Positions 28,778 through 34,958 are shown, numbered from the stretch's first letter. The stretch is 64,000 nt of DNA from Escherichia coli (GCA_902500055.1 GCA_902500055.1_4131.1); one strand, 5' to 3'. The notes: generated by a model not told the origin, from the sequence alone. Numbers and translations: made by a program.

Positions 28778-29090
28778 TATTAGGCTCCTGTTTAGATTCT
28801 TTCATTAGTACTATCATCTTATGTACTAATGGCATAGGGAACTCTAAATCCCATACTAATGATTCCTGGAAGTATTCCTCTGGTGATAAAGTACTTAAAT
28901 CTTTAATATCAACGTGCTTGTATATTTTATTTTCGTAATTAACAAATGATATATATAAATCATCAACATAAGAATCATAAGTAATTGTGAATGGCTTACC
29001 CTTGTAATCCATTACATCTCTACATAGACTACTTTTGATATATGTATGTTCAAATGATTTATATACCTTGAGTTGTATATTAGTTTTCAT
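28746..29090 (-). CDS. famA paralog, hypothetical protein
   Basis: 114 aa; core PEEYFQESLVW. Confidence 0.6.
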   Translation of the reverse strand: MKTNIQLKVYKSFEHTYIKSSLCRDVMDYKGKPFTITYDSYVDDLYISFVNYENKIYKHVDIKDLSTLSPEEYFQESLVWDLEFPMPLVHKMIVLMKESKQEPNSAYEEHIIEY

Positions 29091-29355
29091 ATTTCTCTTT
29101 ATTAGCTTGTTTGGTTTTATAGTAAATTAAATCTATTAATGTAATCAAGTACAACGTCAAATAGTACTCTTGTTGATCTGTACCTAATGATACAAATAAC
29201 TTGTGCTCATAGATTAAAACCTGTTTCTCTTCAAATGGACATTTAATCCTCTGTATAGGCTTAAGTAAATGATAGTACTTATTAAATCTATGATACATTT
29301 CTAGTTCTGTCAGTACTTTCATATTAAACACGTACTCCATTAGCAGTAGCATCAC
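29080..29355 (-). CDS. famB paralog
   Basis: 91 aa; core VSLGTDQQEYYLTLYL. Confidence 0.55.
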   Translation of the reverse strand: MMLLLMEYVFNMKVLTELEMYHRFNKYYHLLKPIQRIKCPFEEKQVLIYEHKLFVSLGTDQQEYYLTLYLITLIDLIYYKTKQANKEKYEN

Positions 29356-29545
29356 GTAAAGCTAACAAATACTTCTGTACTGCTTGCTCTTGATGATCTG
29401 TACCTAAAAGTATATACACCCATAATTCATTGTAGTGTACATCTTCTGTATAAGGGTTGTTGTAACTTTTTGATAATATAGCATCAAATTCAGATGCATG
29501 AACCCTTGTGAACTTAAGAATATCTTGTTGTGTTATGATTCTCAT
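29324..29545 (-). CDS. famB paralog
   Basis: 73 aa; core LLGTDHQEQAVQKYL. Confidence 0.6.
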   Translation of the reverse strand: MRIITQQDILKFTRVHASEFDAILSKSYNNPYTEDVHYNELWVYILLGTDHQEQAVQKYLLALRDATANGVRV

Positions 29546-29757
29546 ATCTTTTCCTGTACTATCTGCATTAGAATCCCTATGTGTGAATTAACAGTTCTCT
29601 CTTGATGCTGTGTTCCTAAGAGTGTCAGTACTATCATATCTGAACGCAAAAGATTTTTTTCAAGTTCACTTATATCAGTTCTTGAATCAAGTGCCATATA
29701 TTTGTGATTATTCTTCCTGAATAGTGCCAAGTACTCTTGATTTGATATTACCTTCAT
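29542..29757 (-). CDS. famB paralog
   Basis: 71 aa; core LLGTQHQERTVNSHI. Confidence 0.6.
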   Translation of the reverse strand: MKVISNQEYLALFRKNNHKYMALDSRTDISELEKNLLRSDMIVLTLLGTQHQERTVNSHIGILMQIVQEKI

Positions 29758-29969
29758 AGTTTACTTTGAATTTCCATTAAAAGTGCTCTAATATGCTCAT
29801 TGACAAATCGCTCTTGGGAATCTGTGTCTAGGGTGAGAAGCATTCTTAAATCGGAACCTCTGATGGTATATTCTAAATCATTCTTTGATTCTCGCATAAG
29901 TTTCTGAAAGGATGAGAAGTGTAATCCCATTAGTTCAATGTATTCTGCTGTTCCTAGTGGTTTTGGCAT
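29754..29969 (-). CDS. famB paralog
   Basis: 71 aa; core LTLDTDSQERFVNEHI. Confidence 0.6.
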   Translation of the reverse strand: MPKPLGTAEYIELMGLHFSSFQKLMRESKNDLEYTIRGSDLRMLLTLDTDSQERFVNEHIRALLMEIQSKL

Positions 29970-30181
29970 TTTAGTTCAATCGCTCGTTTAAGTGTATTAA
30001 TATAATCTTTAATGTCGTGTTCTTGATAGTTCGTTCCAAGGGTAGCTAGAACATAGACTTCATTTCTCTTAATAATTTTATCCATATCTGGTATATCTGA
30101 TGTGTTAATGACGAAGAGCTTCAAAAACAGTCCATTTATGATTGTTAGGTATTCTGCATCGGTAATGATTTTCATTTGCAT
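29954..30181 (-). CDS. famB paralog
   Basis: 75 aa; core TLGTNYQEHDIKDYI. Confidence 0.6.
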   Translation of the reverse strand: MQMKIITDAEYLTIINGLFLKLFVINTSDIPDMDKIIKRNEVYVLATLGTNYQEHDIKDYINTLKRAIELKCQNH

Positions 30182-30387
30182 TTTCTCAGTACTAATTCTT
30201 TAAGTTCATTGATGTAGCACTCTACATATTCTTCTTGTAGGTTTGTTCCGATATGTAACAGTACTCTTAAATCTGCTCTCAGTACTTCTTTGTCATCTTC
30301 ATCTATATCAGACAGTGTTATGTTTAAGAATTTACTTGAACTCTCTATAAGTAATATTACTGAATCACCTTTGCTTAAAATTTTCAT
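30172..30387 (-). CDS. famB paralog
   Basis: 71 aa; core HIGTNLQEEYVECYI. Confidence 0.6.
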   Translation of the reverse strand: MKILSKGDSVILLIESSSKFLNITLSDIDEDDKEVLRADLRVLLHIGTNLQEEYVECYINELKELVLRKCK

Positions 30388-30595
30388 AATCTCTTTTTGC
30401 TTTCCTCGCCAAAAGGTACATATACGATTCTTCGTATTGTGCTTGGAAGTTTGTGTTTAAGAGTCGAAACAACTTCTGTTCTGCTAGAACGAGTTGCTTA
30501 TCTTCATAACAACGGTAGCGTATCAACTTTTTGTATTCGATGTTGATTACATCCATTACTATAAGCCCATGTTCATCATCTGTCAAGTGCTTCAT
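30365..30595 (-). CDS. famB paralog
   Basis: 76 aa; core LLNTNFQAQYEESYM. Confidence 0.55.
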   Translation of the reverse strand: MKHLTDDEHGLIVMDVINIEYKKLIRYRCYEDKQLVLAEQKLFRLLNTNFQAQYEESYMYLLARKAKRDYENFKQR

Positions 30596-33341: not shown

Positions 33342-33496
33342 TTACATTTATCCCTTATTAGATTTGTGAGTGCAACTATGTGTTCATGGATATAAAAATT
33401 CTGATGAGAAGTTCCAAGAAAGTACAACATCCATCCCTCACTCTGCTCGACTTCTAGTTTAGTATCGAGTTGGTCAGATATGTTAATGAAAACCAT
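33338..33496 (-). CDS. famB paralog (52 aa, below track cutoff)
   Basis: Hand-translated MVFINISDQ...; core FLGTSHQNFYIHEHI; ATGA and TAATG junctions with neighbours. Confidence 0.5.
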   Translation of the reverse strand: MVFINISDQLDTKLEVEQSEGWMLYFLGTSHQNFYIHEHIVALTNLIRDKCK

Positions 33497-33753
33497 TAGT
33501 TCTTTTCCTTTCTTTCTATTTGTTTCATAAGAACATTGATATACTCACCCGCAAACCTATTCTGATACTGCGTCCCCATGAATTCCAACATCCATACTTC
33601 AGCAACCTTTTCTTCAATTTCAGTCCATTGTAAGTACATCATAGTGAAGTAAATGGTGTTCTCTTTTTTTCTGGCACTCTTAGCACGGGCCTCGTATTCA
33701 AAGTTATTAATGATGTTCATTACATTTGTCCATAATGTAATTCTTGAGTGCAA
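33496..33753 (-). CDS. famB paralog
   Basis: 85 aa (start probably internal Met); core FMGTQYQNRFAGEYI. Confidence 0.55.
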   Translation of the reverse strand: MHSRITLWTNVMNIINNFEYEARAKSARKKENTIYFTMMYLQWTEIEEKVAEVWMLEFMGTQYQNRFAGEYINVLMKQIERKEKN

Positions 33754-33934
33754 CTATGTGTGCAATAACATACTCTTCCTGGAAGTTCGTCCCCAGTACA
33801 GCCATCATGCGTATATCGGTGGTGTTTATCCTGTGTTCTCTTATACATAAACCTTCTTTGTGAGGAAGTGTAAAATATTTGTTTATTGCAGCAATGATAA
33901 TTTTATTCTTCTCGGAATTACTTAAATGTTTCAT
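33707..33934 (-). CDS. famB paralog
   Basis: 75 aa; core VLGTNFQEEYVIAHI. Confidence 0.6.
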   Translation of the reverse strand: MKHLSNSEKNKIIIAAINKYFTLPHKEGLCIREHRINTTDIRMMAVLGTNFQEEYVIAHIVALKNYIMDKCNEHH

Positions 33935-34143
33935 AGTTTACTCCTGATATAATTCTGAAGTGCAATTAAGTATTCCCCTACATAATACACCTGAAAGTCT
34001 GTATCAAGGAATGCACCCATAAGTAAATCTTTTTCTAATACCCTTGATAAGTTAAGGTCTGCATTTGAAAGGTATATAAGTAAGATTTCACCCTGTGCGG
34101 AATTGAAACGTTTCTTATATTCTTCTGGTGTTAAAAAAATCAT
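33931..34143 (-). CDS. famB paralog
   Basis: 70 aa; core FLDTDFQVYYVGEYL. Confidence 0.6.
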   Translation of the reverse strand: MIFLTPEEYKKRFNSAQGEILLIYLSNADLNLSRVLEKDLLMGAFLDTDFQVYYVGEYLIALQNYIRSKL

Positions 34144-34355
34144 AATTTGCTCCTGATATATTTCTCAAGAGATGACAAATACTTTTCCTCATAATACTTC
34201 TGATAGTCTGTTCCTAAGAATGCACCCAATAGTATATCATTTTCCAATACCTCGGCTAAGTTTAAATCAGAAGTCTCTTCGTATATTATGAGGATTTCAA
34301 GTTGTCTGGCAGCGATGCGTTCAGTATATTGATATGAGTTTTCTATAATAATCAT
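34140..34355 (-). CDS. famB paralog
   Basis: 71 aa; core FLGTDYQKYYEEKYL. Confidence 0.6.
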   Translation of the reverse strand: MIIIENSYQYTERIAARQLEILIIYEETSDLNLAEVLENDILLGAFLGTDYQKYYEEKYLSSLEKYIRSKL

Positions 34356-34561
34356 AATTTACTCTTTATATCTTCTATTAAAAATCGAATCCATTCTTCA
34401 ACATAATCTTCCTGATGGTTTGTGTTCAGTACAGCTAACATGCGGATCTCTGCTCTTGCAACTTGGATTTCAGTTTTAGGAAGGTCTTTGCTGATATCCA
34501 ACATTAAGTCCATGTATTTCAAGATAAGACCTAATGATTGGGTTCGTGTTATAGTTTTCAT
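34352..34561 (-). CDS. famB paralog
   Basis: 69 aa; core VLNTNHQEDYVEEWI. Confidence 0.6.
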   Translation of the reverse strand: MKTITRTQSLGLILKYMDLMLDISKDLPKTEIQVARAEIRMLAVLNTNHQEDYVEEWIRFLIEDIKSKL

Positions 34562-34764
34562 TGTTTACTCTTTATATCTTTTATTAAATGTAAAATCCAA
34601 TCATTAACAAAACTTTCTTGGAAGTTGGTTCCCAGTCCAGCCATCATCCACCACTCCGATAGAATAAACTTTTTTTCATCCCTAGATAACTCATCTGGTA
34701 TATATATATTCTTTCTATATTCGATCATAAGATTATATAGTTGAAATTGTGTGATAATTTTCAT
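34558..34764 (-). CDS. famB paralog
   Basis: 68 aa; core GLGTNFQESFVNDWI. Confidence 0.6.
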   Translation of the reverse strand: MKIITQFQLYNLMIEYRKNIYIPDELSRDEKKFILSEWWMMAGLGTNFQESFVNDWILHLIKDIKSKQ

Positions 34765-34958
34765 AGTTTACCCGTTATATCTTCAATTAAATATGAAATC
34801 CAATCCTTGACATACCTTTCCTGAAAGTTAGTTCCAATGAATAGTGCCATAACCAATTCACGCTTATATGCAATACCACGGATATGTGACATATGTAGGA
34901 TATATGCCATGTTATTGATAAGTCTTTCGTGATGTTCTGCTTGAGTTAAAATACGCAT
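34761..34958 (-). CDS. famB paralog (first gene of array)
   Basis: 65 aa; core FIGTNFQERYVKDWI. Confidence 0.6.
   Translation of the reverse strand: MRILTQAEHHERLINNMAYILHMSHIRGIAYKRELVMALFIGTNFQERYVKDWISYLIEDITGKL

What the first reader, a model, noticed from the sequence alone, without database searches (positions are those of the whole stretch)
29080..34958. Second multigene family (famB): about 29 tandem plus dispersed copies of a ~75-aa protein with an LGTNYQE core
Seen in sequence: back-to-back ORFs of 52-92 aa with N-terminal ...EY...R, a central (F/L)LGT(N/D)(Y/F/H)QE, then xYVxxYIxxLxxxI. Additional copies sit inside the famA array at 14857, 15026, 27325 and 27561. The array is headed by a promoter at about 34989-35016. 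No named family recognised.
Basis: seen in the sequence. Interest (0 to 1): 0.75.

Follow-up and report, generated by a model that had tools for sequence, protein, structure and literature searches.

The report
Tandem small-protein family in jumbo coliphage
A giant E. coli phage carries 27 back-to-back genes, plus 4 scattered copies, for related 70-residue three-helix proteins of unknown function that start just inside its terminal repeat; the family is real but is an uncharacterised example of a known kind of phage gene expansion.

Summary
Window 29080-34958 (minus strand) holds 27 contiguous genes of one family. Four more copies lie at 14857, 15026, 27325 and 27561, giving 31 in all and no borderline hits.

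The window comes from an Asteriusvirus, a PBECO4/121Q-like jumbo coliphage. The family is not unnamed: 29 of 31 members match PHROG phrog_4148 (function unknown). Pfam, PADLOC and PDB give nothing.

AlphaFold2 predicts a three-helix bundle (pLDDT 97.9). LGTxxQE forms the helix 2-helix 3 turn. Orthologue comparisons show purifying selection (dN/dS 0.35-0.40; 0.16 in the motif, where synonymous changes are frequent). These are real proteins, not a DNA repeat.

The paralogues are old (mean identity 31%, maximum 52%) and mostly keep one-to-one orthologues across the genus.

The array begins about 100 bp inside the inner edge of the roughly 21-kb direct terminal repeat. A conserved sigma-70-like promoter sits there, last in a series of about 27.

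Copy number falls in relatives: 19 in JNE01, about 17 in an uncultured relative, about 12 dispersed in Klebsiella phage RaK2, and none at the syntenic site in fENko-Kae01.

My best reading is one early operon encoding an accessory set of host-interaction proteins. Function is inferred, not shown. A 121Q array of more than 30 genes was noted in one sentence by Hua et al. 2017.

The parts
34989..35016 (-). Sigma-70-like promoter heading the array: TTGACT, 16-nt spacer, TATTAT, with an AT-rich UP-like stretch upstream
   Evidence: It is the last of about 27 strong promoter matches with AT-rich upstream tracts on the minus strand between 35016 and 55387. The -35 hexamer is identical in three relatives; the -10 is TATTAT in vB_Ec-M-J and CMSTMSU and TAAAAT in ph0011.
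34959..35207 (-). Conserved 249-bp intergenic region holding the promoter and, at about 35057, the inner boundary of the direct terminal repeat
   Evidence: The four-sequence alignment has 90% mean column identity including end gaps, and the shared intergenic core is nearly identical, against 84-90% for the array in the same phages. The vB_Ec-M-J annotation gives the DTR as 1..21525, and its end maps to window position about 35057.
34761..34958 (-). famB gene 1 (65 aa), first in the operon; GGAG Shine-Dalgarno
   Evidence: HMM E 3.5e-18; phrog_4148 8.3e-18
34558..34764 (-). famB gene 2 (68 aa)
   Evidence: HMM E 1.5e-23. Best match in vB_Ec-M-J and ph0011 is only 42-44% identical, so it looks like a replaced cassette.
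34352..34561 (-). famB gene 3 (69 aa)
   Evidence: HMM E 5.6e-22
34140..34355 (-). famB gene 4 (71 aa, pI 4.4)
   Evidence: HMM E 1.3e-17; phrog_4148 1.9e-17
33931..34143 (-). famB gene 5 (70 aa); D replaces G in the motif
   Evidence: HMM E 2.5e-20
33707..33934 (-). famB gene 6 (75 aa)
   Evidence: HMM E 1.7e-24
33496..33753 (-). famB gene 7 (85 aa as listed; likely start is the ATG at 33720, giving 74 aa)
   Evidence: HMM E 6.7e-23; start refined
33338..33496 (-). famB gene 8 (52 aa; lacks most of helix 1)
   Evidence: HMM E 1.8e-16, covering profile positions 26-73
33084..33341 (-). famB gene 9 (85 aa); the member modelled
   Evidence: HMM E 4.4e-27; AF2 pLDDT 97.9
32855..33127 (-). famB gene 10 (90 aa)
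   Evidence: HMM E 4.1e-19
32634..32870 (-). famB gene 11 (78 aa); most divergent motif (TGTDKKA)
   Evidence: HMM E 1.6e-17
32422..32649 (-). famB gene 12 (75 aa)
   Evidence: HMM E 7.8e-23
32207..32425 (-). famB gene 13 (72 aa)
   Evidence: HMM E 2.5e-23
31998..32216 (-). famB gene 14 (72 aa)
   Evidence: HMM E 9.2e-23
31753..32001 (-). famB gene 15 (82 aa)
   Evidence: HMM E 4.4e-23
31512..31790 (-). famB gene 16 (92 aa as listed; the true start is probably an internal ATG a few codons in)
   Evidence: HMM E 4.6e-24
31264..31515 (-). famB gene 17 (83 aa)
   Evidence: HMM E 2.1e-18
31025..31279 (-). famB gene 18 (84 aa)
   Evidence: HMM E 4e-21
30802..31053 (-). famB gene 19 (83 aa); 52% identical to gene 18
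   Evidence: HMM E 1.6e-22
30576..30833 (-). famB gene 20 (85 aa)
   Evidence: HMM E 3.9e-21
30365..30595 (-). famB gene 21 (76 aa)
   Evidence: HMM E 4.1e-16. Its orthologue, as the C-terminal half of P0001, is modelled at pLDDT 93-98 with the same fold.
30172..30387 (-). famB gene 22 (71 aa)
   Evidence: HMM E 3.7e-20
29954..30181 (-). famB gene 23 (75 aa)
   Evidence: HMM E 1.4e-23
29754..29969 (-). famB gene 24 (71 aa)
   Evidence: HMM E 9.7e-20
29542..29757 (-). famB gene 25 (71 aa)
   Evidence: HMM E 2.5e-21
29324..29545 (-). famB gene 26 (73 aa)
   Evidence: HMM E 2.5e-20
29080..29355 (-). famB gene 27, last of the array (91 aa as listed; likely ATG at 29322, giving 80 aa)
   Evidence: HMM E 4.5e-20; start refined
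27561..27779 (-). Dispersed famB copy (72 aa)
   Evidence: HMM E 5.2e-18
27325..27591 (-). Dispersed famB copy (88 aa)
   Evidence: HMM E 3.7e-13
15026..15244 (-). Dispersed famB copy (72 aa; motif GSNKQD)
   Evidence: HMM E 2.6e-17
14857..15048 (-). Dispersed famB copy (63 aa)
   Evidence: HMM E 2.6e-17

Best explanation
The region is a translated, anciently duplicated gene family in an Asteriusvirus jumbo coliphage.

Shown:
- There are 27 adjacent, overlapping genes plus 4 dispersed copies.
- Each encodes a soluble protein of about 70 aa, predicted with high confidence to be a three-helix bundle.
- The conserved residues are the hydrophobic core and one pole of the bundle: the N-terminal MKxLT strand, the start of helix 1, and the L-G-T-x-x-Q-E turn between helices 2 and 3.
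- The helix 1-helix 2 loop and the exposed helix faces, helix 3 above all, vary freely.
- Every column class is under purifying selection. Paralogues are deeply diverged, and most have one-to-one orthologues across the genus.

Inferred:
- L-G-T-x-x-Q-E is a structural helix-stop/helix-start element (a Gly C-cap plus a T-x-x-Q capping box), not a catalytic site.
- The array is one long early operon, read by host sigma-70 RNA polymerase from the conserved promoter at 35016-34989. That promoter sits about 40 bp inside the unique sequence next to the terminal repeat.
- Translation is partly coupled through ATGA overlaps.
- The products are an accessory set of small binders built on one scaffold. 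Each is kept for its own target and acts early in infection on host or competing-element macromolecules (host takeover or counter-defence).
- The family is dispensable for the basic Rak2-like life cycle, because a related lineage lacks it at the same position.
For: Family and coding status:
- Exactly 31 HMM hits, with nothing between E 4e-13 and 0.7.
- phrog_4148 matches 29 of 31.
- dN/dS is 0.40 against vB_Ec-M-J and 0.35 against ph0011.
- By column class, dN/dS is 0.15 (conserved), 0.44 (variable) and 0.16 in the motif, where dS is 0.42.
- Orthologue substitutions correlate with paralogue entropy (rho 0.52, p 1.6e-6).

Fold:
- AF2 gives pLDDT 97.9 and pTM 0.82, with helices 6-24, 31-45 and 52-84 and a bridge between residue 2 and T49.
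- A second paralogue is modelled with the same fold.

Operon and early timing:
- There are no intergenic gaps, and 13 junctions are ATGA overlaps.
- The promoter is the last of about 27 consensus sigma-70/UP-like promoters spread through the adjacent terminal-repeat region.
- The 249-bp leader is far better conserved than the array.
- The DTR boundary comes from the vB_Ec-M-J annotation.
- In relatives, such promoter-rich short-ORF regions are proposed to be early (CBB, PMC5259590). DTR genes are measured as highly transcribed early in PA5oct (PMC7318152).

Repertoire rather than recent amplification:
- Paralogue identity averages 31% and peaks at 52%.
- DNA-level repeats are confined to the motif codons.
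- pI ranges from 4.4 to 9.9.

Accessory and variable:
- famB dN and dS are 2-3 times those of flanking genes.
- Three genes have no close orthologue in vB_Ec-M-J or ph0011.
- Copy number is 19+2 in JNE01, about 17 in an uncultured contig, about 12 dispersed in RaK2, and none in 50 kb at the syntenic site of fENko-Kae01.
Against: - No transcript, ribosome-profiling or proteomic data exist for these genes in any Asteriusvirus I could find.
- The promoter scan finds no more sites than shuffled sequence does (44 against 47 expected), so the call rests on context and conservation.
- No sequence or structural link to any known host-takeover or anti-defence protein was found.
- Pooled dN/dS stays below 1 even at variable columns (0.44), so there is no direct sign of an arms race between orthologues.
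- Which genome end enters the cell first is unknown.
- The conserved pole could be a shared docking site rather than purely structural.
Confidence: 0.5

Rival explanations
1. Genome-filling by tandem duplication (the capsid-genome 'ratchet' of Hua et al. 2017). On this view the array mainly exists because duplicated DNA filled an enlarged capsid. The proteins would have little or no individual function and be drifting.
For: Hua et al. [quoted passage not shown] Copy number differs between lineages.
Against: Every column class is under purifying selection, and core and motif columns have dN/dS of about 0.15. All 27 reading frames are intact although the paralogues are only about 31% identical, so the duplications are old. 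One-to-one orthologues persist across the genus. Neutral filler would have accumulated stop codons long ago, since random ORFs here average 12.5 codons.
Confidence: 0.12
2. The paralogues work together rather than separately. They would form hetero-oligomers through the conserved pole, or all dock onto one common partner such as RNA polymerase, a protease or a phage protein. They would then act as interchangeable adaptors or regulators of phage development, not as independent anti-host effectors.
For: One invariant pole (MKxLT, E8/Y9, LGTxxQE) contrasts with variable remaining surfaces. Tight co-transcription and translational coupling imply near-stoichiometric co-production. Natural in-frame fusions of two adjacent members exist (P0001).
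Against: The AF2 model of the natural two-domain fusion gives no confident inter-domain packing (pTM 0.53, with the N-terminal domain poorly modelled), so the test was inconclusive. Copy number varies from about 12 to 31 and the family is absent from a related lineage. That fits a fixed-stoichiometry assembly poorly. The conserved turn is fully explained as helix capping.
Confidence: 0.18
3. The proteins are small helix-turn-helix-like DNA-binding regulators or nucleoid-associated proteins. 'A..LGT..Q' resembles the Gly-containing turn of HTH motifs.
For: The architecture is three helices with a conserved Gly turn before the last helix. Phage G has about 35 copies of a zinc-ribbon protein that has been proposed as a transcription factor or DNA binder (PMC7824862).
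Confidence: 0.05
4. The repeat is a DNA- or RNA-level element, such as a recombination or regulatory repeat, and the ORFs are incidental.
For: A 21-24-nt core (CTTGATAGTTTGTTCCTAAGA) recurs 12 times at spacings of about 210 nt.
Against: That core encodes LGTNYQE. Its copies differ mainly at third codon positions. The motif has the highest dS (0.42) with dN/dS of 0.16. The remaining sequence shows no DNA-level repetition, yet it aligns as protein and folds with pLDDT 97.9.
Confidence: 0.01

Closest known systems
PHROG phrog_4148 (and its satellite phrog_28039), function unknown
   Same: Direct profile membership. 29 of 31 window proteins match phrog_4148 over its full 74-position length (E down to 7e-26), and 12 of 31 also match phrog_28039. 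RaK2 two-domain relatives match it as well.
   Different: The PHROG is only a sequence cluster. It carries no fold, motif interpretation, genomic context or function.
[quoted passage not shown] 2017 (mBio, PMC5646251)
   Same: Same phage genus. 121Q proteins are direct hits (PBI_121Q_325; A0A097EXS8). The interpretation as tandem duplication is also the same.
   Different: It is a one-sentence mention with no family definition. It may instead refer to the neighbouring array of about 180-aa genes. The members here are not 'very similar' (mean identity 31%).
Host-takeover or pre-early gene modules at phage genome ends: the SPO1 terminal-redundancy module of 24 small genes, T5 pre-early genes in the left terminal repeat, and Kayvirus 'Tre' genes (from my own knowledge, not checked here)
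   Same: Many small genes of unknown fold lie at or next to a long direct terminal repeat. They sit behind strong host-type promoters and are transcribed inward from the genome end.
   Different: Those modules are sets of unrelated genes, each with its own promoter, and lie inside the repeat. This is one paralogous family in a single promoter-less block just outside the repeat. Early timing and host shut-off are unproven here.
Terminal multigene families of large eukaryotic DNA viruses: African swine fever virus MGF110/360/505 and poxvirus terminal host-range families (from my own knowledge)
   Same: Tandem paralogue arrays lie near genome termini. Copy number varies by lineage, sequence divergence exceeds that of neighbouring genes, and the families are dispensable in some lineages.
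   Different: There is no homology. The hosts and protein sizes differ entirely. The immune-evasion role is established for those families and only hypothesised here.
Phage G lineage-specific expansion of about 35 zinc-ribbon proteins (Iyer et al. 2021, PMC7824862)
   Same: Another jumbo phage with about 30-35 copies of one small protein.
   Different: A different fold (zinc ribbon against three-helix bundle), an unrelated phage, and a different proposed role (transcription factor or DNA binder).

Membership tests
PHROG phrog_4148 | Significant full-length match to the family profile HMM | tested here: met
   29 of 31 members match at E <= 1e-3, with best E 7.4e-26 and coverage of profile positions 1-73 of 74.
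Tandemly duplicated multigene family | Homologous genes that are adjacent, on the same strand and without intervening unrelated genes | tested here: met
   27 consecutive minus-strand members cover 100% of 29080-34958. Neighbours are slightly more alike than non-neighbours (permutation p = 0.003).
Tandemly duplicated multigene family | Recent or ongoing amplification (near-identical copies, DNA-level repeats) | tested here: not met
   Maximum paralogue identity is 52% and the mean is 31%. DNA repeats are limited to the motif codons.
Phage early / host-takeover module (SPO1- or T5-like) | Location in or next to the terminal redundancy, transcribed inward | tested here: met
   The array starts about 100 bp inside the inner boundary of the DTR (1..21525 in vB_Ec-M-J) and runs away from the terminus. 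JNE01 and contig L002 show the same order of spaced small genes, then the array, then roughly 180-aa genes; neither has an annotated DTR.
Phage early / host-takeover module (SPO1- or T5-like) | Host sigma-70-type early promoter | tested here: inconclusive
   A 10-of-12 consensus match with an AT-rich upstream tract lies in a conserved leader (the -10 hexamer differs in ph0011) and is last of about 27 similar sites. The generic scan is not enriched over shuffles, and there is no TSS data.
Phage early / host-takeover module (SPO1- or T5-like) | Transcription in the first minutes of infection; host shut-off or takeover activity | not testable with these tools
   No Asteriusvirus transcriptome or proteome was found. 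The only analogy is PA5oct DTR genes (PMC7318152).
Known anti-defence protein families (Acr, Ocr/Ard DNA mimics, Acb2/Vs.4 and Tad sponges, Dmd-type antitoxins) | Sequence or structural similarity to a characterised member | tested here: not met
Known anti-defence protein families | Inhibition of a defence system | not testable with these tools
   Requires experiments.
Helix-turn-helix DNA-binding domains | Match to HTH profiles and HTH helix geometry | tested here: not met
   No HTH Pfam hit. Fold searches return antiparallel bundles, not HTH domains.
Bacterial anti-phage defence proteins (PADLOC) | Match to a defence-system protein model | tested here: not met
   Only seven unrelated single-member hits, with best E 0.0015.

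The most novel reading that the evidence does not exclude
The array may be a phage-encoded 'binder library'. About 30 stably maintained variants of one minimal three-helix scaffold would be made together in the first minutes of infection. Each would neutralise a different host defence or housekeeping protein, or a competing mobile element. That would make it a bacteriophage counterpart of the terminal multigene families of ASFV and poxviruses. It could also help explain the broad host range and persistent-infection lifestyle reported for Asteriusvirus.
Probability: 0.2. Interest if true: 0.7.

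Novelty: new member of a known kind. Interest (0 to 1): 0.4.

Why it matters
Jumbo phages devote tens of kilobases to genes of unknown function. This window alone has about 56 kb with no gene of established function. famB is one of the largest single-family expansions in a coliphage, with 31 copies or about 5% of the gene count.

It now has several concrete handles:
- a confident fold,
- a clear split between scaffold and variable surface,
- a defined promoter and operon,
- natural copy-number variants for comparison (31, 21, about 17, about 12 and 0).

If the members prove to be host-interaction effectors, they would supply about 30 new small protein inhibitors. They would also show how a phage maintains a large stable effector set rather than a rapidly cycling one. 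If deletion has no phenotype anywhere, that would support the capsid-genome 'ratchet' view that much jumbo-phage DNA is retained duplication.

Either outcome can be tested with standard phage genetics in E. coli.

Tried and rejected
- **Pfam.** Scans of 8 members at E <= 1 gave only sub-threshold noise such as PucR and DUF4576. PADLOC gave noise.
- **Remote homology.**
  - The full HMM search of 1.84 billion representatives found only 101 clusters, all carrying the LGTxxQE-type motif. The ten weak hits traced came from Asteriusvirus-like or uncultured relatives.
  - A broader 59-sequence profile found nothing new.
  - The same profile gave 0 PDB sequence hits.
- **Heterodimer proxy.** AF2 on the natural fusion protein P0001 gave pTM 0.53. 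The N-terminal domain had no alignment depth, because MAFFT placed all paralogues on the C-terminal domain, so the result is uninformative.
- **Lineage-specific or ancestral expansion.** RaK2 and L002 members are as similar to window paralogues as to their own (normalised scores about 0.20-0.22). The question is unresolved because the sequences are saturated.
- **tblastn with single members.** This was too insensitive across genera. Fetching loci and scanning them with the HMM worked instead.
- **Positive selection.** Pooled dN/dS at variable columns is 0.44, so there is no evidence for it at this resolution.
- **Two-domain relatives.** The C-terminal domain of the RaK2 and L002 proteins matches nothing.
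- **CMSTMSU locus.** I excluded it from the rate analysis because its ORFs are fragmented and the record is marked UNVERIFIED.
- **Literature.** I found no transcriptome, proteome of infected cells or functional study for this region.

Full report
**Where the window comes from**

Megablast of 29000-35100 matches 36 phage records, all Escherichia or Salmonella jumbo phages of the genus Asteriusvirus. These include PBECO4, 121Q-like phages, G17, Sharanji, CRJP21 and phAPEC6, at 84-96% identity. The window is AT-rich (30-40% GC) and has no tRNA genes. From 1 to about 60.3 kb nearly all its genes lie on the minus strand.

Yes. The ORF listing shows 27 minus-strand ORFs of 52-92 aa tiling 29080-34958 without any gap. 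Thirteen junctions are ATGA-type 4-nt overlaps and the others overlap by 1-47 nt. From base composition a random ORF would average 12.5 codons.

- G is present in 27 of 31 sequences, T in 30 and Q in 30.
- The N-terminal M-K-x-L-T..E-Y is conserved.
- So are a helix-3 pattern Y-V..Y-I..L...I and a C-terminal K.

The next hit is at E 0.7. That test is circular. The independent check is PHROGs: phrog_4148 matches 29 of 31 members and phrog_28039 matches 12 of 31.

At the DNA level the only recurring element is the 21-24-nt stretch that encodes LGTNYQE.

**Are they really proteins?**

I compared the window genes with their best counterparts in two other Asteriusvirus genomes. Pooled Nei-Gojobori estimates were:

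| Comparison | dN | dS | dN/dS |
|---|---|---|---|
| famB vs vB_Ec-M-J | 0.092 | 0.233 | 0.40 |
| famB vs ph0011 | 0.135 | 0.383 | 0.35 |
| Flanking genes vs vB_Ec-M-J | 0.030 | 0.123 | 0.25 |

Splitting the alignment columns gives dN/dS of 0.15 at conserved columns and 0.44 at variable ones. It is 0.16 in the LGTxxQE segment, which also has the highest dS (0.42). The constraint on the motif is therefore on the amino acids, not on the DNA or RNA.

Orthologue substitution frequency per column correlates with paralogue entropy (Spearman 0.52, p 1.6e-6). This is expected if all members share one fold.

Shine-Dalgarno-like cores occur upstream of 12 of 27 starts, against 21% of background ATGs. 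The remaining genes probably rely on translational coupling.

**Structure**

AlphaFold2, using only the 31 paralogues as its alignment, gives mean pLDDT 97.9 and pTM 0.82 for the 85-aa member at 33084-33341. Helices span residues 6-24, 31-45 and 52-84, with a one-residue bridge between residue 2 and T49. A second paralogue, modelled as the C-terminal half of a natural fusion protein, shows the same elements at pLDDT 93-98.

The conserved residues fall into two groups:
- the hydrophobic core (L4, Y9, I13, I23, V36, M/L43, L47, Y55, V56, Y59, I60, L63, I67);
- one pole of the bundle (MKxLT, E8, G48, T49, Q52, E53).

The helix 1-helix 2 loop and the exposed faces are free to vary.

I infer, from general knowledge of helix capping, that L-G-T-x-x-Q-E is a glycine C-cap for helix 2 followed by a T-x-x-Q capping box for helix 3. 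That makes it a fold-determining turn rather than an active site. It could also be a shared docking surface, and I cannot exclude that.

pI ranges from 4.4 to 9.9. The proteins have no hydrophobic segments.

**Relation to known proteins**

No informative match emerged:
- Pfam gave no hit above noise.
- PADLOC gave nothing.
- The PDB sequence profile search gave 0 hits.
- Foldseek against PDB had a best E of 1.9.
- BFVD returned only 121Q, PBECO4, UB and slurp01 relatives.

The fold is a plain three-helix bundle with no informative relative.

**Genomic setting**

In vB_Ec-M-J the direct terminal repeat is annotated as 1..21525, and the array's first gene starts at 21624. Alignment maps that boundary to window position about 35057. 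This is about 40 bp upstream of the -35 hexamer of the promoter-like site at 35016..34989, TTGACT-16-TATTAT with an AT-rich upstream tract.

The 249-bp leader is nearly invariant among four phages, whereas the array itself is 84-96% identical across the genus. The exception within the promoter is the -10 hexamer, which reads TAAAAT in ph0011.

Between 35016 and 55387 the minus strand carries about 27 strong sigma-70 matches, many of them perfect TTGACA-16-TATAAT with A/T-rich upstream tracts. That is roughly one per gene or two. Inside the array there are no intergenic gaps to hold such promoters.

By length (20.7-21.5 kb in Sharanji, fEgEco12 and vB_Ec-M-J) the repeat should end near 56 kb. 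That is where GC skew flips.

The simplest reading is a promoter-dense early region, the terminal repeat, followed by one long famB operon. That operon probably continues into two phrog_13866 genes (28376-29090) before the next strong promoter at 28374.

Early timing is inferred by analogy. In Pectobacterium phage CBB the same kind of RpoD/UP promoter cluster over short ORFs next to the repeat was proposed to be the early, host-takeover region (PMC5259590). In PA5oct the DTR genes are measured as highly transcribed early (PMC7318152).

**Evolution and distribution**

Paralogues are old. Mean identity over aligned positions is 31% and the maximum is 52%. Neighbours are only slightly more alike than non-neighbours (permutation p = 0.003).

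Most window genes have a clear orthologue (61-100% identity) in vB_Ec-M-J. Three do not (34558, 33338, 33496), and identities vary from gene to gene like a mosaic. Both dN and dS in famB are 2-3 times those of flanking genes. The array is thus a stable set of paralogues and also a divergence hot-spot.

An exhaustive HMM search of 1.84 billion representative proteins finds only 101 clusters. The ten weak hits I traced come from Asteriusvirus-like genomes, JNE01-like phages or short uncultured contigs.

Many hits carry the label 'Escherichia coli' on contigs of about 350 kb. Published reports of Asteriusvirus genomes persisting in E. coli isolates explain this.

Scanning fetched loci with the HMM gives these counts:

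| Genome | Family members |
|---|---|
| This window | 27 tandem + 4 dispersed |
| JNE01 | 19 tandem + 2 |
| Uncultured 101-kb contig (no close isolate) | about 17 |
| Klebsiella phage RaK2 | about 12, in clusters of 1-3, upstream of its roughly 180-aa gene array; two carry an extra C-terminal domain |
| fENko-Kae01 (50 kb scanned from 4.7 kb before the DTR's inner edge) | 0; the roughly 180-aa gene array follows the DTR directly |

The family is therefore older than Asteriusvirus, expanded most in it, and is dispensable in at least one related lineage.

**What it most likely does**

Shown: a real, selected, co-oriented and overlapping family of small helical proteins at the inner edge of the terminal repeat.

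Inferred: a single early operon whose products form an accessory set of binders on one scaffold. Each would be kept for its own target and act on host or competing-element components early in infection.

Points in favour are the position and promoter context, the accessory distribution, the fast but constrained evolution, the variable surfaces and the lack of any enzymatic signature. Points against are the absence of expression data, the lack of similarity to any known effector, and pooled dN/dS below 1 even at variable sites.

I put about 0.5 on this reading. The rivals are:
- co-operating adaptors or hetero-oligomers (0.18);
- retained duplication 'filler' under the capsid-genome ratchet of Hua et al. 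(0.12);
- HTH-like DNA binders (0.05);
- a nucleic-acid-level repeat (0.01, effectively refuted).

**Novelty**

The sequence cluster already exists as phrog_4148 with unknown function. Hua et al. [quoted passage not shown] The RaK2 paper noted that about 10% of its products are paralogues.

I found nothing in the searchable literature on the fold, the nature of the motif, the operon and promoter at the repeat boundary, the selection regime, or the distribution across lineages.

It is a new, uncharacterised member of a known kind: lineage-specific tandem expansions of small early ORFans in large phages. It is not a new kind of system. I score interest as moderate.

Noticed in passing
window 55926-60350, minus strand: A third multigene family: about 20 back-to-back ORFs of about 60 aa with an N-terminal M(N/H)KE(Y/F)Y, a central Cys and a C-terminal hydrophobic ..Y.(I/L)LLI(F/Y)RY. 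Three tested members match phrog_11711 (function unknown). GC skew here is positive (+0.2) although the ORFs are on the minus strand, which is the opposite of the rest of the window. The family lies just beyond the presumed outer end of the terminal repeat, so small-paralogue arrays flank the repeat on both sides in the circular map.
   Followed up: partly
window 35016-55387, minus strand: About 27 strong sigma-70 promoter matches with AT-rich UP-like tracts, many of them perfect TTGACA-16-TATAAT, at roughly one per one or two genes. Some promoter-plus-upstream cassettes are duplicated exactly (47958 = 47664; 52180 = 42049). This looks like the phage's early region and coincides with the direct terminal repeat.
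   Followed up: partly
window about 35040-35110 (DTR inner boundary at about 35057): A GC-rich, nearly invariant non-coding stretch (…GCGTAGGGGGCT.A….GCGGGTAACCTTAGCGACTTCGATAAAGGGG…) sits exactly where the vB_Ec-M-J annotation ends its direct terminal repeat. It is a candidate terminase recognition or terminus-generating site. An 8-bp inverted repeat, AATCCCTT…AAGGGATT, lies just upstream at about 35095-35128.
   Followed up: no
window 36513-36540, with similar contexts at 39288 and 42294, minus strand: The -35 hexamer TTGACT is embedded in a 12-bp-stem hairpin (AAAGGGATTGACTCCGGTCAGTCCCTTT), followed by TATTAT. The same 'AAAAAGGGA-TTGACT-17-TATTAT' context recurs three times. These may be combined terminator/promoter modules.
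   Followed up: no
window 28376-28777 and 28746-29090, minus strand: Two genes immediately downstream of the array are paralogues of each other, sharing the motif LSTLS(P/E)EEYFQ.SL, and both match phrog_13866 (function unknown). They are probably the tail of the same operon. 28376-28777 has no close orthologue in vB_Ec-M-J, ph0011 or JNE01.
   Followed up: partly
Four sampled members each match a different PHROG (36945, 33500, 30243, 19795), all of unknown function, and none matches Pfam. Similar arrays of roughly 180-aa genes occur in RaK2 (ORF417-440) and directly after the DTR in fENko-Kae01. I did not test whether those genes are homologous to famA.
   Followed up: partly
window 39307-39948, minus strand: A 213-aa protein inside the terminal-repeat region has a weak, sub-threshold Pkinase match (E 0.0043, 16.9 bits against a cut-off of 31.7). 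fENko-Kae01 annotates a 'putative protein kinase' at a similar place in its DTR. It may be an early protein kinase like T7 gp0.7.
   Followed up: no
P0001 (ENA contig, 154 aa); P0184 (phages EC.P1 and UB, 269 aa); RaK2 ORF362 and ORF372; L002:12370-12768: Natural fusions involving the family. One joins two adjacent famB genes in frame. One joins famB to a roughly 200-aa domain that has a 40%-identical homologue in RaK2 ORF380. A recurrent two-domain form pairs famB with a C-terminal domain of about 55 aa and unknown function.
   Followed up: partly
L002:3046-3297 (uncultured relative): A ParE-like toxin-domain protein (PF24732) is encoded among the spaced small genes upstream of that phage's famB array.
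   Followed up: no
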